Assembly (NCBI GenBank): GCA_040954595.2
Contig: CM082576.2
Location: 4,624,760-4,688,759, forward strand
Source: Balanoglossus misakiensis
Taxonomy: Eukaryota; Animalia; Hemichordata
DNA: 64,000 nt
Reading direction: 5' to 3'
Both the position numbers and the translations under genes were made by a program. Under the pieces are notes generated by a model. The model made no database searches, was not told the origin of the DNA, and was given only the letters and a program-made list of their open reading frames with translations. Positions 8,452 through 43,800 of the stretch are shown here, one piece after another (position 1 is the stretch's first letter; every line of letters starts with the position of its first letter).

Positions 8452-11400
8452 ATGGACAGCGAGATGAAGGCACGACCTTTGACCTCATCACCCATAGTAA
8501 CAGTAACGCCGGCCCGAGGGATGGTGGATGAGAGGGCAGCTGTTGTAGTAACACATCTGATGCCGAGAAAACCTATCACCCTTTATGCATATTTGATATC
8601 AGAAAAGCAAATAAAGTGGGAATCGTGGGGCCACTATGTCACAGATGATAATGGTAATGTTGAAGGTGAGTAAACATTTTCACATAGCCAAGTCTATAAC
8701 TATTTTGTAACTGTTTTGTCTTGCATGCATTCGATGCACAGCCCAGAAGGTGGTACAGTGTTCGCTTTGAGCATGGTCAAATTGCAACAAACGGGCCATA
8801 AATCTGGCAAATTTGCAGGTAACATATAGCTGATGGGATAGCTATAGTGGCAATCTAAGATCGACAGTCATGTTGTTATATTGATTGCATAGAAATATAT
8901 TCTTCTTTGACTTTCACACATATCAGTTGAGTCTCAAGAGTCACTAGGTGGAACGTACATTGGCCGGGAACCAATGGGGTTATTCTGGAGTCTGAAACCA
9001 GCACCTGGCCAAATGAAAGGGTGTCGTCTACGCAAACTCAATGTCATGAAGCCCCATGTTGTATATATACAAGTTTTCGCCGGCCACCTGAGTCAGAAGT
9101 TTGACATGACCTCACCCATTGCCATGACAACGGCAGAAAGATGGTACATTAGACCTGGTGTGAAAAGATGCCCCATAAAGGAGGGTAATGTGCGTGGGAC
9201 CTTGTTTCTACCAAATGGTGAGTTCAGTTCCTTTCATTTTAACCGTATCTGAATACTACTGTTGTATATGGGAATATTGAGGTCCATGTGCTGAAGTCTT
9301 GACCGTGCGTGTCACCCTGATTCAAAATTTTGCACTTTGCTTCTTCAACTCTTTCATCTCATTGTAGGCACCGGACCTTTCCCTCTTGTGATTGATTTGT
9401 GGGGAGGGGGAGGGGGAATCATCGAATACAAGAGCTCTCTGCTGGCTTCGCACGGTTTTGCAGCAGCAGTCCTGGCTTACACAAATCATGACGACCTGCC
9501 TGTAAATGGGGTCAGCATTGAGTACTTTGAGGTAAGTGTTTCAACATATAGCCTCTTGGTATTATTTTGAAGTCAAGACAAGGTCAGTTTGTGTGATGGC
9601 TAAATTTTAGTGCAGGCAAGTTCTTTGATTTTTTGAGAGGTAAAAATAAAATAGCGCCCTCAGTGTTAATTTTGACAAAATTGATGCCAAGTATATGTTT
9701 GCTGAGGGTGTATCATCTTTGGAAATTTTGAATGCGTGCATGATTTTCCAGCAGTTGAATGAAAGCTTTGACATATCAAATGGAAGAAATGATCATTGAA
9801 TTGTAACTGTATTGACGAATGTGACCGATCATATACATGTTGTCACTTTCCATTCACTGTTCAGGAAGCCTGTGAGTATTTCTGCAATCGTCCGGACATC
9901 GACTCGGAAAACGTCGGATTCCTTGGCACATCACAGGGCGTTTCCCACGGTTTTGAGATTGCCGCAGAAACTGATATTAGAGTAAGTAGTAAACTGTGTG
10001 ACAGGAGCTAGGTGGTGTGCGGAACATGGTGACACAAGCTTTACAATCCTTAATACCAGAACTGGTCAGGTCTTGGCTTAGTGAGGTAAAGCCCAAGGAA
10101 AGTTAATGTAAGCTGAGCTCAAGGTGCCCAGACACAGTGTTTTATTTGACAATAATTTGTTTATTATTTGTTGTGCTTTTGTTGTGTTTTAAGCTCAAGT
10201 GTGCAATACTGACAAATGGTGGATTTGTTCGTGCAGATGTGGTAACGTCGAGATTTGCGAGGGCAGTCACCGGTTTGGCTCCGCCAGGGTAAGCCACTTT
10301 CTCAGGCAATTTGAAAAGTCTCTACATTATCATTATTTTTTAGTTTTAGTGTTTTGTGTATAAAGTACAGTTTCTGGTTCCAGTCTTTATATCATAAGTG
10401 CCCTCTCTCCTTCTTTTCAACATAGCTTACACTAGTTCTGCTTTGATTTTCAGAACAGAATTTCACCTTCCGTGTGAGAAAGATGCAGACGGCAACTTTC
10501 TGACTTACGATATGATGAATTATGAAAGAATTCTTCAAGAGGAGGGCAAGGAAGCATTTGTCAAGGTTAGAGATTTTGTTGTCAATGTGATTTTTTGAAA
10601 ATGCGTAGTGCTATAATAAAATAGCAGAATGCGTGATTCTTTCGGAGTGCAAAATTTGTGACAATGCTTCTGTGGGAAGCGGGCTAAACATATCCAGGTG
10701 ACCATATGCTGTCATGTATCTTTCATTCTTTACACAGGTGGAAAATCTGACATGTCCGTGTTTATTCCTGATATCTGGCGACGATCCGTCGCATGATCCA
10801 GAGGGATATTTCCAAGAAGTGAGAGTCTTCCCATTTTTTCCCAGGGCAGTCTGTCAATGATGGCATAGTTCCATAATTCAAATATGTCACTTGGAAGCTC
10901 CTATATAACCGTGTCTGCATGGTTTTGCATTTTAATCACCAAATCTTTTTTTCTTCATAAATTGAAAATATACCAATGAGAAATTTTACTCTGTCAGAAG
11001 AAAAAAATGTGTTTATTCATACTTTTGGCAGATATACAAAAGAATGCAGAGCGTTGGAAAACAGCATTTACTAGAAGTGTGTCGCTATCCTCAGGCTGGT
11101 CACCTGTTGGAGCCACCATATGCACCGCTGTGCACACTGTCGTATCAATCCATCAAAGCAGCCAATTTAAATTTACCAGGTAAGTATGACTGCCCCCTAG
11201 CGGTGATTCTTGTCTATTACTTTGTTTTGACTTTTTATTACGTGCACATACGTCACACAAGTGAGAGAGATGTTGAAACGGACAGGGATGTTTTTGGAAG
11301 GTGATATTGTTAGTATGAAAAACTAAGAAGGCGGTGATTGAACCATGCATAGGCTGTGTTGTCAAACAACGGGCATTTCGACATGCTTTAACGCAACAAA

Positions 11401-15968: not shown

Positions 15969-18900
15969 ATGTTGCAGTCAGTAGCGTTGGGCTTCTTCCA
16001 TCTGTACGAGCTGTTTTTGGCCTCGGCCATAACCACACAAATCATTGTGTCAGCAGCCGTCGTGGCTTTGTCGTCTGCTGTGGTGTACTACTGTCAGAAC
16101 CGTGCGTATGCAAACTATATCCCCCTCGGGTTACTGTTCGGTGGATGGAGGGCCGGAGAGCGGGTACCCGCCGACGATCAAAACAGAGGGGCGGTACGTG
16201 ATGGTGGGACATGGGCCGAGACAGGTGGTGGCGGTGATGACGGCGGTGGCGGCGGAGAGAGACTGGGGAGAGAGGAACCCGCGAGAGCCACAAGATCTGC
16301 GCTGGCCTCTTCGCTCGACCGTGACGTTACCCGCAGTCAAACCAGCCGCGAAAATCTCCCGGTGGCGAGCCAAGGCAGAGACAACAAGCAGCCGCAGCCA
16401 TCCAAACACGGACGGGTACAAGAGTCTTCGGACATTGTCAGGAAGAGAGCCGAGTTCTTTGGAGGCCGAGCAAAGGCCGAGCAAAACACTCCTGCAGGCC
16501 AACGAGAGACCTTGGCCAGAGAAGAATCTATTGTGCGGGAGGAATGCCCACAACACAAGGCGCCACTGTCAGGGATCGGCGACAGCAGAGTTGTGCAGAA
16601 GGGAACGCCAAGCGAGAGGAAAGTGTTGCAAGCACACTTGAAAGGGAAAGCGTCAGAAAGCGAAGAACAGGGATACAGCTCATATCAGTATGAGACGCCC
16701 GCCGAAGGAACCACCGCTTCAGGTGGGAACGGTGAAACCAGCAACAAGGCGCCGCCACGTCCCTCTTGCATTTCGGGCAAAAGAGAACGACCAGGAACCG
16801 CAACTATTAAGCCCAAGCCAAAGCAGCAATCTTACTTAGACGTGAATGAAAAAGTGAAAAGCCTGCATCGTACAACCGGGAGAATATCCGTCAGATCGTC
16901 GGCGACGACGCACTCCCATTTCTTCCTGCCGACGGAAAATGTCGACCCCAGTGGGAAACCTATGATGCAATTTGCATTTGGCGGCACCAAAGTCGAACAC
17001 AGACTGAAAACAGCCAAGTCCGCATCTGCTGACTCTGTCACAAAACCCGAACCCAGTCATGTCGAAAAGTTGACTGCAGGCTCAGGTCAGCTGAGGCCAT
17101 CCACGGAGACTACACAGAAAGAGACGGGATTAGGTACCACAACGGGATCTGCCTGCTCACCAGGTATTGTTCTTTTATTTCCTTTTCCCCCTTCTGTTAC
17201 ACGTCAGATAAATGCACCAGGTGCTGTACTGGTATGCAGGTAGAGCTATAAAAGTACACCAGACTGACCTTTAAACGCCAACGTCATAATAGGGGTTAAA
17301 TGAGACACAAATTCCGGACATTATGCCGCTAAGCCGTGTTCCGAATGCCGTGCGACAGAAATATCGCCTGGTGCTGTGGCACCTTTGACCAAGTTTACGG
17401 TATTATCGAAACAATGCATTTTCACATAACCTGGCAAACCCGCACGTACATCAGTGTAATATGTAAACCCCAGACAATGAGAAATACGATTGTCTCTGTT
17501 AAACGATGAAGCTGTGCAGATACCAGTTTGGTGTTAATATTTTCATCCGGGGCCGTAGATTCCCAGGTTTCGCCGTGTGCTATTATTGCATGTTCGCCTT
17601 GGGGCAGGCTGCAGTTTCCAAATGCCACATATGACGCAGATTAACATGTTGTTTGTCAGAATTAGCGAGAAGACGGTAAATGTTCAAGGCCGGTTGCTTC
17701 TCGTTGCTCCTGTCATGTACGGGCAGGCAGCGTGGGCCGCACATCCCGTTTTAAATCTTTGCATCAAATATATCGCTTTCCCAACATCAATCATGTGGAA
17801 TAGAAGGAGCCGTCTGAAGGACACGTCACAAGCAGTGGACTGTGGTCACCAAGATGGTGCCAAACTATAGACGTTACCACGGCAACCGAGACGTCCATGT
17901 TATTCTGAGCGCGGTGGCACTCGGTATTGGACATGGCGTATCTTGTGTGTTCTACGAAACTGAAGTATTTCATGAGAAGAAAACAAACACTCGAAATTTA
18001 TGTAGATCTATTGACTCGAGTCGCAAAGTTAAAATGGTGAAGTCAGAACTATTTTTGCTCATATCTCCGCAATATCGTGTTTTGTTTTGTCAGAAGTCTT
18101 ACTTTGCTGCGTCAGACTCATGATTGCAAAATCTTTGAAGACGCAACAGTTTTTGAGAATACCCGATATTTCATAAGTTGCGTTCAGCCCATCTAAATCT
18201 CGTTCTCGAATTTATTAAACGTAAATCAGGGCCTATGATAGACTGTTCTCGGTTCTAATGGAAATACCAGACCGACAGTGCGATTAGTGTACTGATGAAA
18301 TATTCCTCCGATGTCGACTGGTGCCTGTTTACTGAATGGACGGTCGTCCCGTTTTAGCAGAAGTCCGAGCGCAGGCGTCTATTTTTAGCATCAAATAGTA
18401 AATGGGCAGAAACTGGAGCCATCAGTATTTCGAAAAACCTTCAAACTGCACCAAAAACCTTGTAGCGCACTTTCCAGTTGTTTTTTATTCCCCCAGTACC
18501 GCGTCTTTCGCAGACGGTGCCCATTAAATCCACACCCCACCCCTATGACTTTCGAATTGCCGCTGAAATAAAAATGTCGTTAACTTCTGAGGGTCGTCTG
18601 AGATTTGTAAAGGTGAAATCGAAAGTTGTGGTGTCAATACGCCTTACATATACAGTGAATATAAAGATACAGTCTCAAATAAAATTTCCAAGACAAAATA
18701 AATTAAATGCGAAACCTTGTTGAAGCAAAAAAGAGAGAGAATTGCCGAACACTTTTCAAATTTGTTTTGGCATCAAGCGTTCGCAATACGCATACGCGAG
18801 GGCTGTCTTTCCAAGCGTCCAAAGATGCAGATGACCCACAAGGATTATACCCTTTTGCGGCCTCCTACGTGCGTCACAGACCGCAGTGGGATAGTGGTAC

Positions 18901-21900
18901 TACGAATACTTCTCCATATAATTTTAAATATCACGATGACATCTTCTGATGTTTTGGTATTTTCATTCTGCCTTCTCGCGTCTTGTTGATCTGCAGCGCG
19001 GGTCTCCGGTTTCGCCGCGGATCATCTTCTTTACGGACACCGCGCGATGGCAGAGTTCCCGCGGCGTTCTGACGCAAGGCGTTCGCGCCACCCCGCTCTT
19101 CGCTCCAGATTTGTTATCAAAGGCGCTGATATGTCGAACCATACCAAGTTTGGTTCAATTCCACCAGTTGACCAAAAAAAAAAAAATAGGCCGGGCGGAA
19201 TATTCCGTGGTCAGGATCAACAGTAAAAATAGTTCAATGGCTCTTGTGTCCTGAAACCACATTCCTGGTCCAGCAAAATGATGCTACATACACCTCATAC
19301 CGCCTAACATTAAGATAAATCTCTACTTAAATAGTGGGCCAGACATCTTATCAGATTCCTTCCCAGATAATTTCACATGTCACATACTTTTTTCTTATTT
19401 ACCGGCAATTGCTGATTGTACATACACGTAATTATCTTTAGTCTGTCTTCAAAGTCCGCAAATCAGGCATGCATGGTATCAGAAGTTTATACACTCTCTC
19501 CTCCAGGGCAACTGCGATTTCAAGTCCTCCATGAATGTTTTCTCAATTTTCTAAAATTTTGTGTTTGCTCTCCCGTGATTATGACCATAAAACAAACACT
19601 GAAATGAACGTCTAGCTGCTGAGTTTTCTCGAGGAGGCCGCTCCTCCACTTTCCAGATTGGACAAATATGCCTGCGCATTCGTGATCTTCGGGTCATTTG
19701 CGTAATAGCCGCGCAACTGACGTCTTCCACTGACATTATACGTGTGCCTTCAGAGTTGTTTAAGACACACGAGACGCGAAATTACACGGACTTTGAAATC
19801 CCTGATCTGTCCAAAACAACAAGTAAAATAGCCGTGCAAACAGGACGCTCATCTCATTATGGTTTAAACTAATACTATAGCCGTCGGCTAGGCTTCGAAT
19901 AAGACATCTCCCAAACAAACATTTTATTGGGTTTGTGTATCTCCGCCGCCGTTCTCATTGTTTATCGGTGTCGTTGGTACAGATAAATAGATGCGCACTA
20001 ACATTGCAGGTTTACCAGTCCAGATAATTTTGTTCAGGTAGAGAGATCAGTAGGACAGGGGTCATTTTGACGCGATGAACTGGTTGATTTAAAAGCACAC
20101 CCTCTTTATCAGTTTTTATCATAATCTAATGGATTAACTTGATGAATATTTCACGATGAAAGACAAAGACCTTACATCATATAAACATTCAATGTTTAAA
20201 AATACAAATGTGAGAACCAGGGATTGAAAGTTGCCCCTTTAAGTGAATAGCAGAGTCATTGTGTTTTTCATTAACTGGTGATTATGAAGGTTTGTAGACG
20301 CATTATGTTTGATATAAATAATTTAAACACAAATGTCACTATGTAAACGAGTCTGACGTAAAAAGTTAAAGTAAAACTGTTGATAGGTTTTGCTTGCTTT
20401 CAGTCAAAGAAAGCCTATAGGCCTTAAATTTTCAGCTTTCCAAAGGTTCTACATAAAACCGCGCGCTGCGATATTATCATTTCGCATCGGGCCGTGTAAT
20501 TTTTTAGAACTCTGTATGTCAAATTCCAGGCTGGGTGTCTTGACGTCATTTCCGACTCGTTTGACTGATACTTGGGAGACTTGATGGTTGTCCCACGGCA
20601 AGCTTGCGCCATAATTTCTATGTTACTGAGATAAGGCAGCTGGCCTCCGGTGACCCCTAATCGCAGAGTTCTCCAACAACATGTCAGCGAAGTCAGATAG
20701 GTTTCCAATAATAGAACCGGCTGAGTTATTCCGCTCTGGAGAGAGAGAGAGAAAAAAAAACGGGGTCCATGCATCAACCCAGTAAAGTTCTGAGACACTT
20801 GCAGGAATTTTAATCAAGTACCGAGTCGCAGCGCGTGTTGACTCGTGGGTCAGCCTAGCCCGAGTAAATAATTGCGCGGATAAATGCGTTGGGCCTGCTG
20901 AATGCCATTTGGATTAAAACCTGGAAATTCAACTCTACTTCTGCGCCGTAGAAACCGAATTTTCAGTCCGCGTTTTGAAGTTCTCAGACCTCTGTTATAG
21001 TGATGATGTGATCAGAACAGAACAATGTTATTTTTCTTATAGTCGATTAAACATTGCTTTTTTGGCATTAAGTGATACGACATGCTGTGAAATACAAAAA
21101 ATACAAAGTGGCGTGTATTTTGACATCTCGAATGTTTCACTGATGTTTTCGCGCGCAGCCTATGACGCTAGAAAATGTGCCCCTTTACAGCGAAACATAC
21201 GAAATTTATCAATTGTCATTAAATTATCTGCCTCTCTGGCTCGAAGCGGTTATGCTCTGACTTCGTTGCACGGTATGGAATTGCAGGTATTTTAACGGTT
21301 TAATATTACTTGGGTTATATGGCTCACCGAGGCGAGGTCTCTCCCAGGTCTCGTCTCATCCCACTGTCGTCGGACGCAGAGCGCGCTTACGTAATCGTTG
21401 CCGTGGTTACCTTCGGGAGAACGTGAAGTACCCCGGTGTCAATCTAAAACTATTCGCTGTGTTGCAAACAGGGATATTTTCTGTTTCAAGGTACTTAGGC
21501 GCGGCCTGTTTAGGATCACCACTAAGCTCCTAAGCCCCAGCTGGACTTCGGGAGATTTATGGCTTGAGAATGCGTGTCGAAGGCGCGAGTCGTCAACAGC
21601 AAGCATGACTCTGGCACAAAAACTGCATAATCAGTCAAGGTTCTAACCCCCCCCCCCCCGCCCCACCGGCCCGCCTATAATATACATGTGAAATGTTTAC
21701 AGTGTATTACTCGGCACACACCCAGCAATGTCATGGTTCTGGGGGGGGGGGAGTTTGTCGAATCATTCGACTTAGTATAAACGAGCTATTTTATCCTTAG
21801 AAATATTAACTGAAGTGGGTGACAACAAGATAATCGAACTTTCTTCATCTATAAAACTGCCAGCTAGATGAAACAAAGCGACCTTTTTGCGATTTGGTTT

Positions 21901-24900
21901 ACATTGGAATTGGTAATGTTCAGTGTGTCTTTTTATTCTCAACTATTAAATTGAGTCACCGTACTTGCATAACTATACACAAATTTGTCTGATTCACCCT
22001 AGGGCAAACCGACATCAGAAGACGGTCAAGTTCACCGGCTCCAATACCCTGGATCCAAACATTTGACGATGGCACTCGTGACAGGGAAGAGACACGAAGG
22101 CCTCAAGAAGTGTTCAAATTCACCGGAGCCTCGGAAGAGAAACAGAAAGATGACGACGAACAGATATCACTCGAGGCGGCCGGCGGCGGCACTGCCGAGG
22201 CTACGGTCACAGATACCGACGCCGAACCCGGGACATCCAACGGCGCGTGTCTCGATGTGCCGGCTCAGTTGGACGCGGTTACCGCAACGACGCTTCCGAA
22301 ACCACAGGCTACAGATACACTACTACCAGAATCAACCGAAGCGGGCGCCGATGTCAAGCCGACCGACGGCGGAGAGGAAGGGGGCGCCGATTTCGGTAGT
22401 TCCGTGGCCGGCGATCAGCATTCGGAAGAATTGATAAGGCCACCCGTCATTACGGAAAGGGCGCCCCTTTCTCAGCTGACGCTACCGTCGTTAGAAATCA
22501 CAGAAGCCGCGGACGACGAACCGCACGCCGACGAACCATCACCACCTCCGTGCCTGAACGTGGCAAGGAACAAACGCGACAGCCTCGAGGTGCCCATGAT
22601 CACAACGTCTGAACTGGTGATCCCGAAACCCGTGACAACACCACCACAACCAGCAATGACACTACCAACCAGTGAGCCGCTCGAAACACAAGTCGAACAA
22701 ACTACCACACGCGCGCAGGAGAAGTTTGTCGTACCCAAAATTCAGACTTTCGAGGCGCCGCCGTACGAGGTGCCAAGCATCACCTTTGACGACAGTTCGG
22801 ATGACGCCGGTTGCCGAAAAAGCGATCTGGGATCGATGAGCTCCCGGGAGAGCTTAGAAGTACCCTCGGTGGACATCGACACAGAGGCGTATCCGCTGAG
22901 GAGGAAACCACCAGACATAGTTATTCCGAGAGATACAACTGCCAGACACGGCAAGTTCAGTCCGACCGAGACATCACCCAGATATGACCTGGGCCAGGCC
23001 AGTCCCAACAGTCCCACTAAACGAAAATCGATGACGTTTTCTCCTCATATGTCGGAAAACGAGGAAACTGACGAAGAAGACGACCTCTTCATGGAAGAAC
23101 AGACCAAACGAGTGAAGAGGCCGCGCTTGCAGCGTGACTATGGCGTCGACATACCGGACTGGCAGATCACCAACGAGCTGTTTCCGGACGATTTCGGCGG
23201 CATCACACCGGCTGCCGACACCACCGATGACGTCAAGTCCAGGTTCCTCAATTCAACCAACGAGAGCATAATGCTGTTCTTCGAGAAGACGCGAGGCTCC
23301 AACGACAGCGCGGACAGCGAGAAAAGTGACCTGGAACGCAAAATCGAAGCTGCAACCGAAAGGGGGCGGGAAGTGTCCACGGAAGAAGAAACTGAAATTG
23401 AAAAAGATGAAGAGAAGGCGACGAAAGATGATGCTAAGTCGCGCTTCCTGGAATCGCCCCAAAACGAAGAAAAGTCCCTCTTACTGTTGACCACAGCTAT
23501 AACCACGTCAACAGACAGCGGCAGTGGCGAGGCAGTCACCTGTGGGCAGGAGACAGACGATGCCAAGTCCCGCTTCTTGCAACCGTCAGATGCCGCCAAA
23601 TCCAGTCTGCTACTCTCCAAGACCATACGAAGTTCCATCGACGGCAGCGATGAGATGGCGGCTGCCCAGGATTTAGTTGTAAGTGTCCCGTCTGTCCCCA
23701 AGGTGGAAGAGGCCCAAGGCGAGGAGTTGAACCCACAAGAGGAAGATCAGAGGGAGGAGGAGGAGGAGGAGGAGGAGACTTCGGAGGCGATGGCGAGTGC
23801 GAAGTCTCGGTTTTTAGAATCCTGTGTGGAAAGTGAGAACGAAGTCGAAGAAGAGATACAAGTGGCAGTGCCTCCGAAGAATCCAGATACAGGTCGCTGG
23901 GAAACCGGAGGTGAGTATTTCAACGGATAAGAAATTACCATACATGTTTGAATACAGAGGCCGAGAGTACAGGTGCACCCTAGTTTAGATTTGCATAATG
24001 TTTAGTTTCCATGTATAGTGTGGTTACAACACTAACCATCACATCAACCGAAACACTCCGCTCGTTCTTTCTCGAATTTCCCCGAGAGCAGGGAGTCTTA
24101 AATTTCAAATGACTTTTAATCGCTTCCTATGCTCCGACCAACAGCCGCCACTTGGGGAAAACTTCTCGAAAGCGAACTGGAAGATGACTTAGAATTTTAC
24201 GAATCCGACGAAGAACTTGAAAAGGAACCGAGCCCTCGTGATGAGTACATAGAAAAACCTGAAGACCGAGGCGTCGCCGTCGCCGACGATGATGACGACG
24301 ACGACGAAGATGACCTAGAACTGCTCGGCGCCGCTGCCCCGAAACCAAGGCGGAGAGAGACGTCAGCGTACGGAACGGCCTCAGGTAAGATATCCATCCC
24401 CCAGACGAAGAATAACAATACAGCCACGTCACAGTCATTGGTGATTCCGCATTGTCGAGAGACTTAACAATAAACACAGACTGCCAGACATAACAGGCCA
24501 AGCCAGTTACAGTTTAGAAACAGTTTTTTTGGTCGGCGGTGTAATTGATTAGCGTACGTGCTTCGGGAATTATGTTACAAAGCAGAGTACAGCGAGCTCA
24601 ATTAAAATCGCCGAAGTGTTAGCGTATACGTCATTGGCGTGGAACATGAAACATTGCCGTGGTGTGCTTGGGTACTTCCATCTTTAGCTTTACAGATCAT
24701 CAAAGCCAAAGCACGCCTTCCTCGAGAAAGGGGGGACCCAGTATACCATTTTATTAATGCCATAGCTAAAGAACACCAGTTATGAGATAATATTTCACAT
24801 GAAACTGTGCATCACGTGTTCCGGCGTAATTCAAGTGGCTACATCCGAATATTTGGAGTCTGCGGCACGTGCGCGCGGTGCTACTCAAGAAAATAATGAC

Positions 24901-27900
24901 TGGGAACAAGATGTCAGTGCGACCCACTTGTTCACGAGATGTTTATATGCGTTTATAATGGAAGAAATGAAGGACTGGACAGATGTGTAAACACCGGTAA
25001 AATGAGAATTCCATATCGCACCCTTCATAATGAAATCAAACCCCGTTTTCTGTCAATTCCCCTCAGACATCTTCAGTCCCTGGTACAATAAAGCGGTGGT
25101 CATTGACAACGGCTCCGATGTCCTGAAGATGGGTCTGGCTGGCGACTATATACCGAGTATCACCATGCCAACGCTGGTGGGCAGAAGGAGAGGTTACGAC
25201 CTTTCAGAAAGAGAGCGTCACACATACGTTGGGGATGACGCGCTTGCTAGTCAAGGGGTGTTGGGGTTCGACTTTCCAATCGAAGGTGAGTGTGCAATTC
25301 GGTTAGAAATGTGATGTTAACTCATTATTCTTCGTTGATAAGATTGTTTTGTGTTTTCCACTGTCTTTTGTCATCTCATATTGTCGTTCGTGTTGAGTAT
25401 TCGCCGAACTCCCAGCGTTTTACTTGTTCCAAAGTAGTATTTTTGTGTTGAGCACAGGCATGCAACAATTTAAATGTTTTGCAACTCGTATCATTATTGG
25501 TTAAATACATACATCTCCCTTGTGGTACCTGTTATATTGTTTTATTTGCCCCGTTTCAATAACGTTTCCAGTTCCCGTGTAATCTCCGACTTCTCGTTTC
25601 CAGTTCTGTGCTGTTAGCAAGGTTCGCATACCTTATTTTACCGAGAGAACAGATGCAAGTCTATATGCTTCTAATTTTAAACCTCGTGGTATTTTTATCC
25701 ATTTCCGTTTCCACTCAAAGGAGCAATTGCACCAAACAATTTAAGAATAACAAGGCTGTCTGAAATCGACACCCTCTCTATGGAAACCTATCCCCGAAAT
25801 AATTGTTCCAAGTTGTGAATGTGTGTCGCCAGACCCCTGGCATACGGTGGTAAAGCCGACTCTGCCAATTAAAAACACGCGTTGAAAACACTCTGCCACC
25901 CACCCCAGTTCACTCAAGCCATTAAACATGTGCAGACTGGACTTTGTCGAGCTGAGTTGACAATAAATCCTATGTGCGATACACACGTTTATGTGTAATA
26001 TTGGAATGAGAAAAGTCGAGCGCTCGGCCATTTTGAATAATGGCCGATAAATGAGTGACCGCCATTTTGTTATGACCTGTGGTATAGTTGTCATGCGTAA
26101 TCCCAGCAATCGGCCAAACCACAACGCACCCGTTATCATTCACACCGCATACTAACTCACACATTCAAGACTTTGTATTGAATCTTTTATCGTCTCTCTT
26201 TCTCCATTCACTGCTTTCGAAATTGGTAATTTGCTGTGAGTAACAATTAATCATTTTTACATATCACCTGTGACGAAGCTCTCTATTGGCTCTTGCGGGG
26301 GGAAAGAATGTTGAAATATTTCACGCCTTTTCAGTGGCGATACACGGCCGGTGTTACTATATATTCAAGAATGTCACATTGTCTTATTAGTTCCACACTC
26401 CCCCAAACAACACATTTCCGAATGGCATTATTACGGGTAATATCCAAGAAATAGGTTTGGTCCATCGCCACACAAGTACTTAACCCCAGCAGCAGGGGTG
26501 TTTTTTTTTGGCTTCTAAAATTATTTATGGGGTATCGTTTTTCATGTTTTGAGTCATTTCTGATGGACGCCAACGAAGGGACAAAAATCAGACCATATAT
26601 CACGCAAATTGTGGGTCAAGGGTCATGCTATGATATAATTACTGCTCAGAGCCAGAGGTAGATCTTGATACCGCCTGTACGTATAAGTCTATTGGATAAG
26701 GAACTTTGCCCGGTCGGATAACGTCATGTGAATTTTGAAAATATGTTAACATTTCATATTGTTCAAAGGATCTATAACGACATAAATAATCCCGGACATG
26801 CCCTGAGGTGACCCGTTATTGGCGTGCGCGACAAGGGACGTTATCTCTGACGTGATAAAACAATACTACAGTTCGTGTGACCCAGTCGACACGTAAATAT
26901 TATGTCGATCACATTATCACGCCAAACTCGAGAAAAAGTTTTAGTGATGTTGGTGCATTCTGAGCACTCTGTCGGTAATCTCTATCTGGTGATCGTCTTC
27001 TCGTACCGTCGTCTCACATGTATTTATATTCAAGATTTGTGTAATTTGGGTTTAGAAACATAGAAGCCAGATAATATCAAGATATAGATATTTTGGCTGA
27101 TTTTTCATCCCCTCTTATAGGATTCATCAGGCGACTAGCTAGTGCCTCAAACAGCAGCCTACACGATGTCGTTCATGATGAACGCATAGTGCTATTCACC
27201 TCGGCAACCGGCAGAGAAACGATCCCCGATCTCCGCTCGTTAAATCACATTTTATGCCCCCGTAATAACCCACTTTTTACGAACAGAGCAATGACCGTGG
27301 TTTATTTCTTGTAGGCGGTATCGTCGGTAATTGGAGTGACCTGGAGAGGATATGGGACCACGTATTTACGTACGCACTGGCCTTGTCGCCAGCTGACCAT
27401 CCCGTTCTGATGACAGAAATAGCCACGCCGCCGAGACACCAACGCGAGAAATATTTAGAGGTTTGTGATGTTATTTACGCGCCCTTTTCTTGTTGTGAAA
27501 GGATGTTGTCAGATATTCAAGTTTCTTGATTTTGTAGTTCAGATGGCGATGTAGGAAATGGTGTTATACATGTAAATATCAAAACGACTGACAGTACGCG
27601 AAACTTTCACAGTCGTGGCTATATCATTTAGTCTGTCTATCCAGTCCATTGCTTGAGTGATCATACCACGTTTACAATGAACGAATCCAGCTGTACTTTG
27701 TCCAAAACATTTTCAAGTTTCTAGTTTAGTCTGCATCTCTCACTGTTTGTTATGCAGGTACTGTTTGAGAGATTCCACGTACCGGCTGTGTTTCTGGTCA
27801 ACCAGGCAGTTCTGTCTCTACACGCCAGCGGGTGTACATCAGGCGTGGTTTTGAGCAGTGGCAGCGGTGTCACCGAGATCGTCCCGATCTACGAAGGATT

Positions 27901-30900
27901 TTGCATGAGCCACGCTATATCTGTGGTGAGATATATAATAGTACAGTACTTCCCTATAGCTTTGGCGGTAAAATTATTACACTTTCGTTCAGTTATGTAG
28001 GCCTGTATACATGTATAATGACAGGTCGAGGTAAAATCCACCTGGAGAATCGATTTCCTCCGGGATGGGTCAAGTTCAGTGTCACACGGTCGAATTCCAG
28101 ACACGGAAAAAAGGACCACTTGTCTGAACTCGAAAGAAAGTACATGTGACACCCGCATAAAACGAGGAGATTCCGGTGTTGACTTGTCACAAATTTGAGT
28201 AATGCGCCAGACATTGCCACTGCGGATTGGAGAATCTTTTTACCATCCTGTCCAGGTTACCCAAAACCACAACATGTACTTAAATGTGGCTGTGATTGAC
28301 AGAAGTGGAACACAGCGACCATTACACGTTTCATTACAGTGTTTGTTTCAACAATATTGGTTTGAGGTGATAATTTACTCGTTGTCGCCCTTTAAAGACC
28401 CTCACCGTCGCGACAGCTGTGAAAAAATGTCGCTGTCGTTGCGTCAAATGAGCGTTGAAAGGTCGTGAGCTGCAACTCTTTGAAATCTTTGACCTCAGAA
28501 CATTACCCTTTAACTATATTTCACATATAAAAAATATATTTTTAAAGGAATAGGCTAGGCAAGAAATTAATGTTTTCAATACCTGCATGCATGTCCCTGA
28601 ATGGATATTTGTGACGTCACTACTGTAATGGCGCCTAAGCATGATCTCGCAGAGTTTGATGCGTGATCGATTAATGAATGTTGTTATGATTTCATTTTCA
28701 GTTGGATGTTGCTGGACGCCAAGTGACAGGACAACTTGCCTCGTTGTTGCAGCACAATAAAGGATACAACTTCACCACTTCCTCCGAGTGGGAAATTCTG
28801 AGAATTATGAAAGAAAGGCTCGCTTTCGTTGCTTTAGGTAAAACGGAGATAAATATTATAGTTTTGCTTCCATCTCGATGCATGGATATGCAGCCAATAG
28901 ATACTGGTAATACAAGTTATGTTGGGTTGACAATCAGAATACTGGGCATTTTAGCATGATGAGTAACAAAACGTGTACCAAATTGTAGTTGACAAAATAC
29001 TAAAAAATACCCAACAGTTAGAGCCAATTTCCATTTCAGTAGTAAGTTAGCTCAAATTCAATTGTTGCCAAACATCATAAAATTTCATCGTCGTTTTTTC
29101 CTGTTTTTCAGATGTTGAAGAGGAGAGAAGGCGGTCTCAGATCGTTGAAGCTCACGAGTACAAACTGCCGGATGGTCAAACGATGAGCGTTAGCGACGAG
29201 TTGTTTTTGTGTACGGAATCCATGTTCCAGCCTGACGTAGCTGGAATCACGGACAGCGCCGGAGTTCATTCACTTGTCATGGATTCTTTGCAAAGGTAAA
29301 TGCAACATTTGCTGTGTACAACCAGTTGCTATGGTAATTAACCAAGTCTCGCGAGATCTCGCAATGAGGGGAAAATCATTGGACATGTACATGTATTGCG
29401 GTCTGCCTTGGCTTATCGCATGAAAGGTCAAGTGCGCGGCTGATCATCCCTCTAACCCGTGCCATACCACTCTCTCGCGAAGATATTTACGTCCGAGGCT
29501 GCCGAGTTGATGTCGCTTGGTGATGTGACATCGAGCACCGTGATTGCAAAATACCAACGCCATTGTTTCTGATTAATATTGGCATCGGTATGCATCATTG
29601 TAAATAGTTGGCGAGTAATGACCACTGCATCACCATCACTGTCATCGACTGTCAATTTAATTGTTGTTTGTTTTTGGGTTAAAATTGGAATCGTTTAGTT
29701 TGGCACGGAAGGAGCAATTCATTAATGTCGGGATATATATTGACCCCAAAATAGAAGCGCCATTAATCAATCACAACAATGGATACAGCGAAAAGAAAAT
29801 GTAAGAATAACAACTCCCACCCCGATCGCGGTTGTGGCACTGAGCTTTCTGAAGACGGAGCTCCGGGTCTTGTGTATTTGAGTAATTGTGACACGCGGAC
29901 AGCCTCAGAAGTGATGATCTATACATAGCACACATCCTAAACTCACTGTCAGCTGTCCGTGTGCTTAAAGGGGCACAGCCACTGTCTTTTGACGTGTTGT
30001 GGCTATTTTGTTTCTGGTGTGAAGTTATTTATAGTGTTGTCCTCAGGCCATAGTAATATGATCATGTGTTTGCCGTCCTCGTGGGTCCGAGATTTTATGT
30101 AAGAGCTCGTAAATCACAAAAACTTGTGAAATCTGTCTTTATTTGTAATTTATCGTGCTGTGGATCCAATTACTTTTCCACGCGGCACAATTCAACAAAA
30201 GGAATAAATCTGGCCATTCGTGGGTACCATGGATACAGAAGATCTAGCTGATCTCAGAATTGTATTACTTGGGCCACATACAAAAATACGTCACCTTTAA
30301 TTGGTCACGAGAACAATAGACATCCTCAAATATACATATACACGTGAATTGGATGATGAATGCACACGTCATTCATGAGCGCGTGCATCTGGCGACCATC
30401 GTATTTCAGTCAAAATATTGAGATGGCAGGCAAACGTAGAATTCCACCTCTATGGTCCTGTTGTAACATTCTAAATCGTCAGCTGTCAGACCTGTACGCT
30501 CCCCCTGTGCGTAGATGTAACGTGTAAATACCTCGATGACATAATCTGCGCCGTATATCAGAAGTTATGTCACCAACGTATTCACGCGTGATTCACCATG
30601 TATACCGTTAAGTAGAACCACATAACTTCTGAGAAGAGACAGAAATAGCAGCATTTAAATACTCTCAAAAAGATAGCGACGTGACTGCGTCTGTTTATGG
30701 GAGACCGTTATATTTGAGTGCGTTTGCCGTGTGCTTTCCCCGTGTAATTATGTTGTTCTTCTCACCGTAAAATGTGTGAAATAAATGTGGACAGTTTGTA
30801 TAATCAGTATATTCCAAAGGGATTTAAGTCCGGACCGCAATCAATTGATCAGCAAGTACATTGTATTTGCAAGTCAGACTGACTGGTGGCATTTTACCGC

Positions 30901-32607
30901 ACAGATCTTTTGGCAAACTTGTCCACGTGCATTGCAATTGTATCTCTGCTGACTTGGAGTGCCAGCGTAATCTCAAAGTGTCCGGTGTAACGATTTATGG
31001 AGCGGACTAAGTCTAGCATCGTGCGTACCAGTGCGAGTGTTGGGCTTATCAATATGCATTCTTTTGGAAATAGAACAGACATGTAACATGTGGTCCCTAG
31101 TTAGTCACCGAAACCTGGACCGATGACATGTTCTTGTTCACCAGTCCAAGAGTCACTCTTGCTTTATGCAGAGTATGAAGGCAACAATAATACCAAGGCT
31201 GATAAAGCAATGGTATTCCAAACCCTTGGGAATTTCAGCATTGTTTGGGTGTTCACTCACGGTTCCCGGAAAATGCAGTATAAACAGCATTCTCCGCTGC
31301 ATATCATGCATATACGAGTTCACAAAATCGTGTTTCGTGGTTCACTGCACTTTTGCCTAAAACCCGAGCGTTTGCGTTGACTGGGTGGGGTATTCATACG
31401 CGTGCTAGGTCAGACGCTTTAAAATCAGACCTGAACGCATCTGAGATACCGAAACAGACATCATTTTGATAGTTTGTCCGGGGTCGACCATTTATAGGAC
31501 TATGATTCAGTCAACTTAACTTCAAAGGTATGCCGAGGAAGCAATTTGCAGATAACTTGGTGTTTTGATGGAGACAGCGCACATACCTCCGTTTTCGGCG
31601 ACCCCGATAAAAGGTTAAGAAGGTCAATAAACGAATTAGTATGTGGATGTTTTTTGAACTAGTGGAAAAAAGTGTCTCGGCCATTCAGGACCATAGAGGT
31701 GGTAAATTGCAGCTCAGCAGTATTTCGCGTGGTTTTTGCAGTGAACAGGGGACATGTGAGAGATTAGGTTGTATTTCGTATTACGTTGGTTCAATACAAT
31801 ACAATACAATACAATACAATACAATACAATACAATACAATACAATACAATACAATACAATACAATACAATACAATACAATACAATACAATACAATACAAT
31901 ACAATACAATACAAAACAGTATGATGACAGTAAAATTATTTTCTCTGTCTCGTTTCTCATGTCATGAACGTATCAAAGACCTTGGCCGATATTTGAAAGC
32001 TCATAATTAACCCGTTAGGATCAATTGGCATACCAGAGAATACTTTACATGTAAACCGGTTCTGATCAGTAACTTTCTGGGATGTGTTGTTGTTTCTCTG
32101 CGGCTATCATGTGTGTAGTTAGCCTTGAACCTTCGCTGAACCTTGCATATGACCTTCCTTGGCTCAAGTACATACGTGAAGCATCCCACGATTCAGACTG
32201 ATTGTGATAACTACATAATAATGAGCTCTGATATCAGAAGCGCAGTACAAATATCCAATGTGAATAATAGTTGGTCAAAAACTGTCCCGTCATCACTGAT
32301 TTGTGTGTTATGTTTTCTCCTCCCCCCCTTTTTTCACAGGTGTGACCCGGAAATTCGAGCCATGTTGAAGGACATGCTTCTCTTAGCCGGAGGAAATACA
32401 AAACTGAAGGGCTTTGTGCCGCGGCTGCAGAAAGAACTGGCCGCGTTGAACTTGAACATGTTCGTCAACGCTCCCAGCGAGCGTGACCATTCGACTTGGG
32501 TTGGCGGTTCCATTCTGGCTTCACACAGCAGTTTCATGGACAGATGGGTCACAATGGAAGAGTATGCCGATCAGGGAGCCAGCATTGTACACAGAAAGTG
32601 CTTTTAA
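15969..32607 (+). CDS. Giant actin-like protein (1487 aa): N-terminal hydrophobic anchor, ~1100-aa acidic disordered extension, C-terminal divergent actin domain
   Basis: Exons 15969-17163, 22003-23910, 24145-24384, 25067-25285, 27315-27460, 27758-27925, 28702-28837, 29112-29295, 32340-32607. All have GT-AG boundaries and compatible phases, summing to 4464 nt without an internal stop. Actin motifs: [90 protein letters not shown]. The actin exons are near-certain. Joining of the first three exons is inferred from phase only. Confidence 0.8.
23226..23822 (+). repeat. Four copies of a protein-level (DD)[AV]KSRFL repeat in exon 2 of the actin-like gene
   Basis: [10 protein letters not shown] (~23226), [10 protein letters not shown] (~23427), [10 protein letters not shown] (~23556), [10 protein letters not shown] (~23793). 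Confidence 0.8.
29965..30300. mobile_element. Possible degenerate TTAA-targeting (Kolobok/piggyBac-like) MITE in an intron
   Basis: Bounded by TTAA-AGGGG...CACCT-TTAA, which gives only short inverted ends. No second full copy in the window. Confidence 0.3.
31792..31914. repeat. (CAATA)n pentanucleotide microsatellite, ~24 copies
   Basis: A perfect tandem array in the last intron of the actin-like gene. It produces the spurious IQYNT/YCIVL ORFs. Confidence 0.97.
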
Positions 32608-40865: not shown

Positions 40866-43800
40866 TTACAGGTACATGCCGTTGATAAGGTAGTCTGCTT
40901 CCTGCGTATTGTGCAAGGGCCGCCCGTAGCGCAGTTTCCTCTTGACCATTCTGAGTCGACAGGCCACCATGAGCAGCAGCAGAAGTGTGATTGCGAGGCC
41001 GACGGCCAGTGGGAGAATAGCGCTTGTCTCCGGAAGAGTCCGACCGGAATTCGTGTAAAGCTCTTCTACATCCACGTCCCCTTCCTCTTGATCAGCGGTC
41101 TGGTTTCCCGTGCCGGGTTTCTCCGGTTTCTCCGCGACTGCGTTGGATTTCTTGGTTGTGGGCGTGCTTCCAGCAGCTGCCTGTGGAGTTACTTCCTCGG
41201 ATTTATGGCCGGGTGCAGCGGTCTGTGCCTCAACCTTGGCTGGTTTTGTCGCTTCCTTCAAGGGTAGTGGAGTAGTTTCAACTTTTCCTGCAAGGAAAGG
41301 TTTCAAATGAGACTGTTACACTGTTGTACACCAACCGCAATTGCTTTGATCACAATACAGTAAAAAAATTCACATTTTCATAAAAAAACACAAATGTCAC
41401 CAAAGCTAATGTTTCCATACAGAGACAATACACTATCTTATCAAGTTGTACTAAAAGGCATCCCCACTTTTATCATCCCATTGGTAACGTTTATACCAAC
41501 ACCTGACAGGGATCACTATCTAATCTGTACATGATACAAATACCAGAACTTCAAATTGACAGATTCACTGACAATGCAATTGAATCAAAGATCCACTGTG
41601 TACCATGACCTGTCCTTATAACACACATACACACACACACACATATATACCCACCCCAACCCCACACTAAGACCGCATACTACCGGTAGTTAGCGATACT
41701 CTATCAGATGCATAAGGTGAAGGAGATAAGAGAGCCTTGAAAGCTTGCTCTAAATACCATTCAGATTATCTAATGTGTGCTATTTGTCTGACCTCATCAC
41801 CAAAAACTCAACAATTCATAAGTTTATACTTGAGAAGTAAACAAACATTCCTAGAGCACACAGCTGCCTGTTGAAATACTGATCATCCATCACTGCCAAC
41901 ACTTCTATATGTTGTTAACTTTTACATTTTAACATTTCTATTTATTTTACTTTTGAACTGATGGCCCGTTTTTATACTGATATTGTTTGTTGGGGATACT
42001 CTTAATCCGTACATATTCTGTTAAATATTGTTTTTATACGATGCATAAAAATCCTTTCATTTATGAATTGACTTTAAGACAAAATTCAAATTATATTCTC
42101 AATTTAACTACAAGGGAAGATCAAATTCGCTCTACTTCCTACAATATGTCATTCACACAACAAATGTTTATAGCACTCAACTCAATCCTTAGATAATCTA
42201 CAACAGACAATTTTTATTGAAGCGGGTGTGAAATATGTCCTGCGTTTGGGCGTGTGATGACATGACTTGCATGATTTACAACTAAAACGTGACCCGTTCC
42301 AACTCTGTTCTCATGCAGACGTGGTCAGCACCAGCAATGGAATGCTTTCATCCAAACACTGTTGGCAAATGTGGAGGCACATGTACAGAGTATTGATTTT
42401 CATGAACCCCTGCTTTCGATCTCTGAAACTAATGATCCCCACTCATGGTGGGGATTTCACAGGGTGCAATGGTCAGGGGTTGGTGTATAGCTTTGAATTT
42501 TTGAAAGATTTGTGAAGAATTTGCGGGGCACACCCATGTTGTTTTGGAGTTGCGTGATTTGGAAATGCTGGTCTCTGTCTCGAAGAGAACTTCCTCATTT
42601 CCAAATGTGGTCACCACATTAACGGTCCATTTTATAAATTGCTAAACTGTTGCATAGGGGCGTGCACACACTGTCATGATAAAACTTCAACTGTATCCCA
42701 TATGATCACTGCAAAAAACCAACCCACCTTTGGAGTGGTGTTTCCCCTTTGGTGGTTCTGTGGTTTGTGCCGCAGCCTCGGGGGAAGTTTCGGCTGGTTT
42801 GTCATAATCGTAACGACCGCCATCATCATCATCATCATCATCATCGTGGTCTTCGTTGTTGAATTCTGGGTACTCCGAGACTTCGGACTCATCGCGGCTT
42901 CCTCCACCAGTGTTGTAGTAGTACCACGGGTTGCTGTAGTCTGTCGTGTACAAAAAAAGCAACCGGGGAAGTTCCGGTTTGGTCAGCAATAAGATAGAGT
43001 ACCACACTCGCACATGAAAACTCAAACACAATCAGTACATGTGTGTGTGTTGTGGTTGTATGTCTGTGGTTAGCTGAATGCTATGTTTATGAGCAAAGCG
43101 GCACAACACCAGGCTTACACAGCACACCTGCAGATACAAAGACATGACAAGTTAACACCACATGATGTACACAAGGCACAGCTGCAGCAAACACTAGTAT
43201 GCTCGGCATTGGGGGCAGGAACAGGACGAAGCTAGGCACATGCAGTTTGTTAGTATGATGATGTTAGAATTTTAAAACGCTACCCTAAAGCAGGCATGCA
43301 CACCACACAACAAAGCATGACCCAGAATTCACGCAGTCTTGCCAAATGTCCTATCATGGTTGTTGTTGAGTCTAATCCAGTCCAGGCTAGTTCAGCCAGG
43401 CCTAGACTAGTCTAGACCAACACAATTCCATCTTGGCCAACACAGTGAATTCTGGATGCAAAGGCTACTGTTAGAAGTTAAAGACACACAGATGAGAAAC
43501 AAGAGATGTTACCATTGTTGTCTTGAGCAGACTCATAGAAATAGTGGTAAGGTTCAGGATTAGAGAATGGTGCAGGATATCTGGAAGGGTCAGCATGCTT
43601 ATTATGATATGGTGCACGTGCAGTTACTAGTTCATAGAAGTTTCTTCCACCACCTTGCGGTCGATGATCAGACTCTGCCTTGTGCTGGTTCCCCATCTCT
43701 TGCCTATTAATCCCATCCTTGTTATCGTTCCCAAAGCTAGCATCACTGTCGCCATGGCCACCATGCCCATTCTTGCCACTCTGCTTATTATTATATTGAT

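What the first reader, a model, noticed from the sequence alone, without database searches (positions are those of the whole stretch)
15969..32607. Giant, apparently membrane-anchored actin fusion protein (anchor, 1100-aa scaffold, actin fold)
Seen: three large exons with no recognisable folded domain (1195, 1908 and 240 nt) splice through canonical phase-1 junctions into six actin exons, giving one 1487-aa ORF. The first actin exon begins at a good acceptor (cctcag|AC, 25067), with no in-frame Met before DNGS, so the actin domain needs upstream exons. Residues 15-42 ([28 protein letters not shown], 16011-16094) form an uncharged hydrophobic stretch. Established: conventional actins and Arps are ~375-450-aa soluble proteins, and long N-terminal fusions are rare (primate POTE-actin, Dictyostelium filactin). 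I know of none with a signal anchor. Inference: an organelle- or membrane-tethered actin fold on a long acidic leash, which could act as a nucleation seed, filament cap or signalling scaffold.
Basis: partly seen in the sequence, partly recalled or inferred. Interest (0 to 1): 0.92.

Follow-up and report, generated by a model that had tools for sequence, protein, structure and literature searches.

The report
Ancient membrane-anchored actin-like scaffold protein
Acorn worms, sea stars and sea urchins share an uncharacterised giant gene model that joins a predicted membrane anchor, a ~1,100-residue tether predicted to be disordered and a divergent actin fold, which likely no longer forms filaments and likely serves as a membrane-fixed docking platform for phosphatases.

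Summary
Nine GT-AG exons give one 1487-aa frame. A Saccoglossus RefSeq model (1404 aa) aligns end to end at 44% and runs across all three upstream junctions. Five echinoderm species have full-length models with the same layout; the brittle-star model (780 aa) lacks the front end. The 28-residue uncharged N-terminal segment is better conserved (66%) than the actin domain (54%) and has more positive charge behind it than in front. The actin domains form one clade (100/100). They are 36-49% identical to muscle actin, with D154 and H161 replaced in 6 of 6 and no conserved D-loop, so a nucleation seed is unlikely. The linker keeps fixed motif islands: a PP1 RVxF-type site (Met variant in this window; SILK upstream in echinoderms), enriched calcineurin-type LxVP repeats, an FFAT-like motif (strong here, absent in Diadema) and an unexplained AKSRF repeat. 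Best reading: a membrane-anchored, non-polymerising Arp acting as a phosphatase scaffold, possibly at ER contact sites. No RNA, localisation or binding data; range outside Ambulacraria untested.

The parts
15969..17163 (+). Exon 1 (aa 1-398): start codon, membrane-anchor segment, low-complexity linker
   Evidence: 134/398 identical to Saccoglossus
16011..16094 (+). Predicted membrane anchor, aa 15-42, preceded by a conserved Glu and ending in a conserved Cys; N-flank charge -1, C-flank +2 here and +1 to +5 in orthologues
   Evidence: aa 14-42: 13 of 29 columns invariant in 5 sequences; an echinoderm-only HMM finds it at E 5.7e-11 among 126 proteins
22003..23910 (+). Exon 2 (aa 399-1034): acidic linker, predicted disordered, carrying most motif islands
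   Evidence: AF2 pLDDT <50 for the matching Saccoglossus region from residue 657 on
22248..22865 (+). Four Lx[VI]P (calcineurin-type) motifs at aa 482, 593, 603, 683; the last is a composite LxVP/PxIxI form
   Evidence: 4 observed vs 0.46 expected, 1 in 1000 shuffles; binding untested
23019..23042 (+). PP1 RVxF-type site, aa 738-745 (Met at the V position here, Val in Saccoglossus and three echinoderms; SILK upstream in echinoderms only)
23115..23156 (+). Conserved basic KRPR motif, aa 770-783, role unknown
   Evidence: 5 of 14 columns invariant
23229..23825 (+). Four [AV]KSRFL repeats (aa 808-1006), the first three followed by a hydrophobic stretch and a Ser/Thr-acidic tail; partner unknown
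   Evidence: last repeat: 8 of 10 columns invariant
24145..24384 (+). Exon 3 (aa 1035-1114): Trp-led helix-like segment and acidic tract
24192..24212 (+). FFAT-like motif core, aa 1051-1057, after an acidic flank
   Evidence: 1.0 suboptimal element on the table of PMC3261905 S2; 0 of 300 shuffles as good
25067..25285 (+). Exon 4: actin residues ~1-73 (phosphate loop 1, divergent D-loop)
27315..27460 (+). Exon 5: actin ~73-121
27758..27925 (+). Exon 6: actin ~122-177 (Q137 kept; D154 and H161 replaced)
28702..28837 (+). Exon 7: actin ~178-222
   Evidence: no Pfam hit on its own
29112..29295 (+). Exon 8: actin ~222-284 (altered H-plug)
32340..32607 (+). Exon 9: actin ~284-375, actin-type C-terminus and stop; ATTAAA at 32800

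Best explanation
This is one gene model, conserved between acorn worms and echinoderms, whose protein is predicted to be fixed in a membrane by its N-terminus and likely holds a non-polymerising, ATPase-poor actin fold in the cytosol on a ~1,070-residue tether that likely recruits PP1 and calcineurin. SHOWN: the open frame, the orthologous architecture, the clade, the residue changes and the motif positions. INFERRED, step by step. (1) aa 15-42 insert as a reverse signal anchor or hairpin with the C-terminal side cytosolic (positive-inside bias); their unusual conservation, with a Glu, a Gln and small residues, points to a specific membrane partner or self-association. (2) The actin fold probably still binds nucleotide (D11, K18, Q137, K213, E214 kept) but hydrolyses poorly and does not join filaments, so it would work as a monomeric binding platform, as G-actin does in the PP1-PPP1R15 holophosphatase but here supplied in cis. 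(3) The RVxF (plus SILK in echinoderms) and LxVP repeats would dock PP1 and calcineurin, with nearby basic-X-Ser sites as possible switches. (4) In acorn worms and perhaps Patiria the FFAT-like motif would bind ER VAP and place the scaffold at an ER-organelle or ER-plasma-membrane contact.
For: Architecture: 8 of 9 orthologous records (6 of 7 species) are full length and start with the anchor. Echinoderm-only HMMs recover the window's anchor (E 5.7e-11) and linker (E 2.5e-16); no non-family protein among the 126 searched scores below E 1.5. Anchor: KD 1.99-2.27, N-flank -1, C-flank +1 to +5 in 5 of 5; mean identity 0.66 vs 0.54 for the actin domain and 0.20 for the linker. Actin fold: AF2 pLDDT ~90; best structural match actin, Z 45.2, rmsd 1.8, 341 aligned, 48% identity. 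D154 becomes S/T and H161 becomes E in 6 of 6; H73 and R177 are lost in 6 of 6. PMC9646518 (passages) assigns activation of the attacking water to D154/H161 and the Pi back door to R177/H73. The D-loop is unconserved in sequence and length and the H-plug is altered; both are filament contacts per PMC12713339 (passages). Lx[VI]P: 4, 3, 2, 3, 4 copies vs 0.35-0.46 expected in the 5 full-length proteins tested (p 0.001, 0.004, 0.052, 0.007, 0.003). The RVxF-type site sits at one aligned position in 5 of 5, with SILK about 15 residues upstream in 3 of 3 echinoderms. FFAT score 1.0 here (0/300 shuffles), 2.0 in Saccoglossus (1/300), 2.5 in Patiria (6/300).
Against: No transcript, localisation or binding data. 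The window's own RVxF has Met for Val and fails the strict pattern; RVxF counts alone are at chance level (1 vs about 0.67 expected), and the two hemichordates lack SILK. PxIxIT is not enriched (window 3 vs 0.94, p 0.068; others p>0.2). Most LxVP copies have Ser at -1, not the hydrophobic residue of the strict definition in PMC5156906. The FFAT-like motif is weak or absent in A. amurensis (3.0; 39/300), A. rubens (4.0; 197/300), Amphiura (2.5; 31/300) and both Diadema proteins scored (best 4.0; 210 and 213/300), so it is not a family-wide feature. The best-conserved linker element, the AKSRF repeat, is not explained. The distance from RVxF to the next Arg motif (27 residues or more) exceeds the 20 of PPP1R15A. 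The Amphiura model lacks the anchor, LxVP and RVxF region. Q137 is kept and a Glu at 161 could itself act as a base, so loss of ATPase is not certain.
Confidence: 0.45

Rival explanations
1. Structural tether for a specialised actin structure, for example in sperm: the anchor holds a membrane while the AKSRF repeats and/or the Arp domain grip an actin bundle, and the phosphatase motifs only regulate the protein itself.
For: Non-canonical Arps of flies and mammals are mostly testis-enriched, and the N-terminal extension of Arp53D targets it to germline actin structures (PMC8291977, passages). The repeats are the most conserved linker element and loosely recall the F-actin motif VxxLxxxFE (PMC13364712, passages). 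Actin-based acrosomal processes in echinoderm sperm are recalled knowledge, from no call.
Against: As read from the sequences, the repeats keep only the Phe of VxxLxxxFE. No expression data point to testis. The multi-exon structure differs from Arp53D, which arose by retroduplication.
Confidence: 0.22
2. Membrane-tethered filament cap or nucleation seed: the actin fold joins a filament end, as Arp11 or Arp2/3 do.
For: Intact actin fold with actin as the closest solved fold; the actin-type C-terminus is kept unchanged in 3 of 6. A cap needs only one intact face.
Against: The D-loop is unconserved even within the family, the H-plug is altered, and residues ~321-323 are deleted. The barbed-end cleft is changed (Y143 to H in 5 of 6, L349 to H in 6 of 6, M355 to R in 6 of 6) and positions 287-291 are not conserved. 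Family members are only 40-77% identical to each other, unlike a subunit that must fit an invariant filament.
Confidence: 0.13
3. The hydrophobic N-terminus is not a membrane span but a cleaved signal, a surface-bound hairpin (ER or lipid droplet) or a protein-binding helix; the rest is a cytosolic scaffold.
For: The segment is rich in Ala/Ser/Thr/Val and holds a Gln; residues 1-42 are long enough for a hairpin; no dedicated predictor could be run.
Against: There is no basic N-region and the positive charge lies behind the segment. The low hydrophobic moment of aa 21-38 in the two hemichordates (0.06-0.07) argues against an amphipathic helix. Signal peptides are rarely this conserved (recalled).
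Confidence: 0.12
4. The fusion is a gene-model artefact, or the main products are separate shorter isoforms.
For: All support comes from predicted models. The Amphiura model is 780 aa and starts mid-linker. Intron 3 has an in-frame stop at 24465 followed by AATAAA at 24469, which could give an actin-less form, though one AATAAA in 682 nt is about what chance gives. One search shows that many long actin 'fusions' in databases look like chimeric models.
Against: The same order and junction continuity recur in 6 species from two phyla. Exon 4 has no in-frame Met before phosphate loop 1, and no ATG-to-strong-donor mini-exon was found in intron 3 (narrow pattern).
Confidence: 0.08

Closest known systems
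Non-canonical lineage-specific Arps (Drosophila Arp53D; mammalian testis Arps such as ACTL7A, name recalled)
   Same: Divergent actin derivative kept within one lineage, fast-evolving, with an unstructured N-terminal extension (PMC8291977, passages).
   Different: The extension is ~1,120 aa against 40 in Arp53D, begins with a predicted membrane anchor and carries conserved motif islands; the gene has five introns inside the actin domain.
Dictyostelium filactin and primate POTE-actin
   Same: Long N-terminal fusion to a C-terminal actin domain.
   Different: Those carry folded filamin or ankyrin repeats (PF00630, PF00023) and an actin closer to conventional actin (PMC2441452, passages). They fall outside this clade and do not match the anchor or linker HMMs.
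PPP1R15A/B (GADD34/CReP) with PP1 and G-actin
   Same: Works-like only: N-terminal membrane attachment, long acidic region, RVxF site, and an actin monomer as part of the working unit (PMC10743859, passages).
   Different: No homology seen (Pfam finds only Actin and, once, MreB). The actin is encoded in cis and is divergent; the motif spacing differs; PPP1R15 attaches by an amphipathic helix.
FFAT-bearing organelle tethers and AKAP scaffolds (PTPIP51/RMDN3, AKAP220, AKAP5)
   Same: Works-like only: membrane-bound or disordered scaffolds with FFAT or phosphatase-docking motifs (PMC8306308 and PMC3261905, passages; AKAP5 from an abstract).
   Different: An actin fold in any of them is unknown to me (recalled); no PKA-anchoring helix was tested; the FFAT-like motif is not family-wide.

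Membership tests
Actin superfamily (PF00022) | Actin/Hsp70 ATPase fold with actin-family sequence | tested here: met
   Pfam E 1e-87 to 2e-106 in 5 of 5 orthologues; AF2 and VIA Z 45.2 to actin
Conventional actin | Very high identity to other actins | tested here: not met
   36-49% to skeletal actin
Conventional actin | Hydrolysis residues Q137, D154, H161; H73/R177 back door | tested here: not met
   Only Q137 kept, 6 of 6
Conventional actin | Conserved D-loop and H-plug filament contacts | tested here: not met
Canonical Arp3, Arp4, Arp5, Arp6, Arp8, Arp11 | Closer to that Arp than to actin | tested here: not met
   Structural identity 48% to actin vs 30% to the Arp2/3-complex chain A, 24% to yeast Arp4, 20% to human Arp8 and 23-31% to the remodeller and dynactin chains listed; no tree with these references was built
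Canonical Arp1, Arp2 | Orthology to Arp1 or Arp2 | tested here: inconclusive
   The best 60 of 160 PDB sequence hits are all conventional actins, but Arp1 and Arp2 were not scored separately and were not reliably in the tree
Non-canonical lineage-specific Arps | Divergent, lineage-restricted clade with N-terminal extension | tested here: inconclusive
   Clade 100/100 among 37 rows and extension met; restriction to Ambulacraria not shown because the deep profile search could not be run
Non-canonical lineage-specific Arps | Testis-enriched expression | not testable with these tools
   No expression data obtained
POTE-actin | Ankyrin repeats plus beta-actin-like domain | tested here: not met
Filactin | Filamin repeats plus conventional-type actin | tested here: not met
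PP1-interacting proteins | RVxF motif in a disordered region | tested here: inconclusive
   Strict match at the aligned site in 4 of 5 full-length proteins, Met variant in the window; count not above chance
PP1-interacting proteins | Auxiliary SILK motif | tested here: inconclusive
   3 of 3 full-length echinoderms (p 0.03-0.04 each), 0 of 2 hemichordates
PPP1R15 family | Sequence homology and RVxF-PhiPhi-R-W string with its spacing | tested here: not met
   No Pfam hit other than Actin/MreB; spacing longer than in PPP1R15A
Calcineurin-docking proteins | LxVP motifs in disorder | tested here: inconclusive
   Loose pattern enriched (my pattern is a subset of the one in bioRxiv 632547); strict pattern with a hydrophobic -1 residue mostly not met; the PSSM supplement was not available
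FFAT-motif VAP ligands | 2 or fewer suboptimal elements | tested here: met
   Window 1.0, Saccoglossus 2.0; the table columns were read from a PDF layout and may be off by 0.5
FFAT-motif VAP ligands | Conserved among orthologues | tested here: inconclusive
   2 of 8 proteins at 2.0 or better, 2 at 2.5, 4 at 3 or worse
Short linear F-actin motif (SFM) | VxxLxxxFE | tested here: not met
   The repeats keep the Phe only (compared by eye, no PSSM)
N-terminal signal-anchored membrane proteins | Hydrophobic span with positive-inside bias | tested here: met
   Simple scales only, 5 of 5
N-terminal signal-anchored membrane proteins | Uncleaved, membrane-integrated in cells | not testable with these tools
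   No SignalP, DeepTMHMM or experiment available

The most novel reading that the evidence does not exclude
An integral-membrane member of the actin family, over 500 million years old, in which a catalytically crippled actin has been hard-wired to a PP1/calcineurin docking string and a VAP-binding motif: a self-contained, organelle-anchored holophosphatase subunit that carries its own actin cofactor and works at ER contact sites.
Probability: 0.2. Interest if true: 0.9.

Novelty: new variant of a known kind. Interest (0 to 1): 0.7.

Why it matters
Actins and Arps are known as soluble proteins that reach membranes through adaptors (established knowledge). A family with its own conserved anchor, kept since the hemichordate-echinoderm split (over 500 Myr, recalled), would add a new use of the actin fold. 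It gives a natural test of what a monomeric, non-polymerising actin does for a phosphatase, a question raised by the G-actin-dependent PPP1R15 enzymes. Patiria miniata and sea urchins are tractable embryo models, so expression, localisation and knockdown are directly feasible.

Tried and rejected
RNA evidence: no RNA holder listed for 22003-25400; this is no evidence either way. No whole genome is held for the window, so paralogues and synteny were not checked. The deep profile search of cluster representatives could not be run, so the range beyond the 7 species is open. One search covered only proteins of 772-2457 aa and the best 7979 candidates (120 of 200 hits listed); one search had 18 candidates and 2 hits. 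Complex prediction of a conventional fish actin with Saccoglossus aa 845-940 (two AKSRF repeats): verdict 'no answer', score 0.00, alignments not used. The first AF2 run with 15 rows failed (pLDDT 37); the second (35 rows) folded the actin domain and left the linker unplaced, which says nothing on docking. ESM Atlas: the N-terminal 70 aa gave only a 0.75 hit to an unnamed 248-aa cluster, and aa 730-1000 gave no usable hit. PDB sequence search with the linker motif region: 0 hits at E 10. Considered and dropped: a capping-protein (CPI) motif near aa 297-310 (partial, from memory, absent in echinoderms); WH2, RPEL and Xin likeness of the repeats (by eye, from memory, not matched). The patterns SL.[VI]P and K.R[FY][LF] were drawn from these sequences, so their shuffle values are circular and are not used as support. 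Literature: LOC100374707 in 0 papers; searches listed no title or abstract on this family. The library lacks most subscription journals, so this is not proof of absence. bioRxiv supplements (calcineurin PSSMs of 632547) were not available and could change the LxVP reading. Earlier scan findings: none by sequence, words or relatives.
Full report
Observation. I rebuilt the gene from the raw sequence. Nine exons with AG/GT borders give 4464 nt and 1487 aa with a single stop, and the first three junctions are phase 1. Pfam sees no family in exons 1-3 and Actin in 5 of 6 downstream exons. Read into their introns, exons 1, 2 and 3 stop after 26, 6 and 27 codons. Residues 15-42 are uncharged and are the most hydrophobic window of the protein (2.05 against 1.32 elsewhere).

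One gene or several. A search with exon 2 alone among longer proteins gave 1 hit among 7976 candidates: Saccoglossus kowalevskii XP_002741556.1, 1404 aa. It aligns with the spliced product from first to last residue at 44% and runs through all three upstream junctions. A search with its actin domain among proteins of 772-2457 aa (120 of 200 hits listed) gave Amphiura (780 aa), Asterias amurensis (1340) and Diadema antillarum (1560) as the best single-domain hits. Cluster look-up added A. rubens, D. setosum and two more D. antillarum records, and an N-terminal search added Patiria miniata (1425). Eight of these 9 records, from 6 of 7 species, start with the same hydrophobic segment; the Amphiura model starts mid-linker. 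HMMs built from three echinoderms alone find the window's anchor and linker (E 5.7e-11 and 2.5e-16) and no non-family protein below E 1.5 among 126 stored proteins. The window's nearest relative is Saccoglossus (77% in the domain; 100/99), so the source is likely an acorn worm. All of this rests on predicted models; no transcript was seen.

The anchor. Across the window and 4 orthologues, aa 14-42 have mean identity 0.66 with 13 of 29 columns invariant, above the actin domain (0.54) and the linker (0.20). In 5 of 5 the uncharged run is 28 residues, the N-flank charge is -1 and the next 25 residues carry +1 to +5. By the positive-inside rule (established knowledge) this predicts an uncleaved anchor with the bulk of the protein in the cytosol; a hairpin is not excluded. 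Such conservation suggests a specific partner in the membrane (inference).

The actin domain. AlphaFold2 on the Saccoglossus C-terminal 748 residues with 35 rows folds the domain at pLDDT about 90 and leaves the linker below 50; a 15-row run failed. The nearest solved fold is actin (Z 45.2, rmsd 1.8, 341 aligned, 48%), and the listed Arps are 18-31% identical. The best 60 of 160 PDB sequence hits are conventional actins. Six family domains form one branch, 100/100, in a 37-row tree picked from 68 dereplicated domains; the tree lacks Arp2-Arp11 references. Against skeletal actin (36-49%), D11, K18, Q137, K213 and E214 are kept in 6 of 6. D154 becomes Ser/Thr, H161 Glu and G15 Asp/Glu, and H73 and R177 are lost, in 6 of 6. 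PMC9646518 (passages) places D154 and H161 in water activation and R177/H73 in the phosphate exit. The D-loop differs in every species, the H-plug has an insertion, three residues near 321-323 are missing, and the barbed-end cleft has gained His143 (5 of 6), His349 and Arg355 (6 of 6). I infer a monomeric, probably nucleotide-bound, ATPase-poor domain with a new binding specificity. One intron falls at actin codon 121/122, a position I recall from deuterostome actin genes; I found no paper to confirm it.

The linker. It is poorly conserved except for islands in fixed order. The calcineurin-type Lx[VI]P pattern, taken from the literature (bioRxiv 632547, passages, uses L.[ILV]P), occurs 4, 3, 2, 3 and 4 times against 0.35-0.46 expected in block shuffles. 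The window, Saccoglossus and Diadema each have one copy in the composite LxVP-x-hydrophobic-x-hydrophobic form described there (read from the output). Against this, PxIxIT alone is not enriched, and most copies have Ser at -1, outside the strict definition (PMC5156906, passages). An RVxF-type site lies at one aligned position in 5 of 5, strict in 4 and with Met in the window; SILK (definition in PMC9813921, passages) precedes it in 3 of 3 echinoderms and 0 of 2 hemichordates. RVxF counts alone are at chance. Exon 3 holds an FFAT-like motif scoring 1.0 on the table of PMC3261905 (passages; supplements S2 and S5), a level reached by 15 of 3052 human candidates in that table; 0 of 300 shuffles match it. 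Saccoglossus scores 2.0, Patiria and Amphiura 2.5, Asterias 3 and 4, Diadema 4, so it is a partial feature. The AKSRF repeat (4 copies here, 2-3 strict matches elsewhere) is the most conserved island and stays unexplained; it keeps only the Phe of the F-actin motif VxxLxxxFE (PMC13364712, passages).

Mechanism. The most economical reading is a membrane-anchored phosphatase scaffold ending in a non-polymerising Arp (0.45). It works like PPP1R15, which is membrane-attached, acidic, RVxF-bearing and needs G-actin (PMC10743859, passages; PMC12185105, passages), and like FFAT tethers such as PTPIP51 (PMC8306308, passages), but it is a member of neither. Rivals: a structural tether for a specialised actin assembly, perhaps in sperm, by analogy with non-canonical Arps (PMC8291977, passages; 0.22); a cap or seed (0.13); a non-spanning N-terminus (0.12); artefact or split isoforms (0.08). 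For the last, the short Amphiura model and a stop plus AATAAA early in intron 3 are the only hints. I put the one-gene architecture itself at about 0.9.

Novelty. RefSeq names every member 'uncharacterized'. The locus tag occurs in 0 papers, and four topic searches listed nothing on the family (listings and abstract starts only). Filactin (PMC2441452, passages) and POTE-actin differ in clade and in their N-terminal domains. A deuterostome muscle-gene survey (PMC5888912, passages) did not mention it in the passages shown. I rate it a new variant of a known kind: a lineage-specific Arp with an architecture I could not find described. It may not be the only anchored actin: three unnamed proteins with a shared unknown domain and an 80-86% conventional actin turned up, two with a hydrophobic N-terminal segment. 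Its range outside Ambulacraria is untested. Interest 0.70.

Noticed in passing
P0100, P0064, P0057 (from; unnamed Logan and JGI records on ~2.5-kb contigs): A second, unrelated actin-fusion family: 772-811 aa, a shared ~240-aa Cys-containing domain with no Pfam hit (29-44% identity, E 1e-23 to 1e-55) fused to a near-conventional actin (80-86% to skeletal actin). P0100 (KD 2.29) and P0064 (1.61) begin with a hydrophobic segment; P0057 does not start with Met. Worth its own study.
   Followed up: partly
window 46945-47448 (+): Exon of a PPP1R14/CPI-17-type PP1 inhibitor (PF05361, E 5.8e-5), 14 kb downstream of a gene with a PP1-docking-type site; probably coincidence, synteny not checked.
   Followed up: no
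window 40866-46341 (-): Gene with MANEC and LDL-receptor A domains, an Asn/His-rich exon and a C-terminal membrane segment; LRP11-like by recall.
   Followed up: no
window 2-2851 (+): One uninterrupted 949-codon frame, open at the window start, acidic and then Gln-rich; not identified.
   Followed up: no
window 8911-9252 (+) and 62667-63035 (-): Acyl-CoA thioesterase/BAAT exon and a nitroreductase-family exon (iodotyrosine deiodinase-like by recall).
   Followed up: no
P0042 and P0125, linker just after the last AKSRF repeat: Sea-star orthologues carry [SG]RFxV motifs, which from memory resemble the SPAK/OSR1 kinase docking motif; absent in the window.
   Followed up: no
window 24465-24474 (+): In-frame stop followed at once by AATAAA in intron 3; could allow an anchored isoform without the actin domain.
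   Followed up: partly
window 31794-31913: Perfect (AATAC)n microsatellite of about 24 units in the last intron.
   Followed up: no
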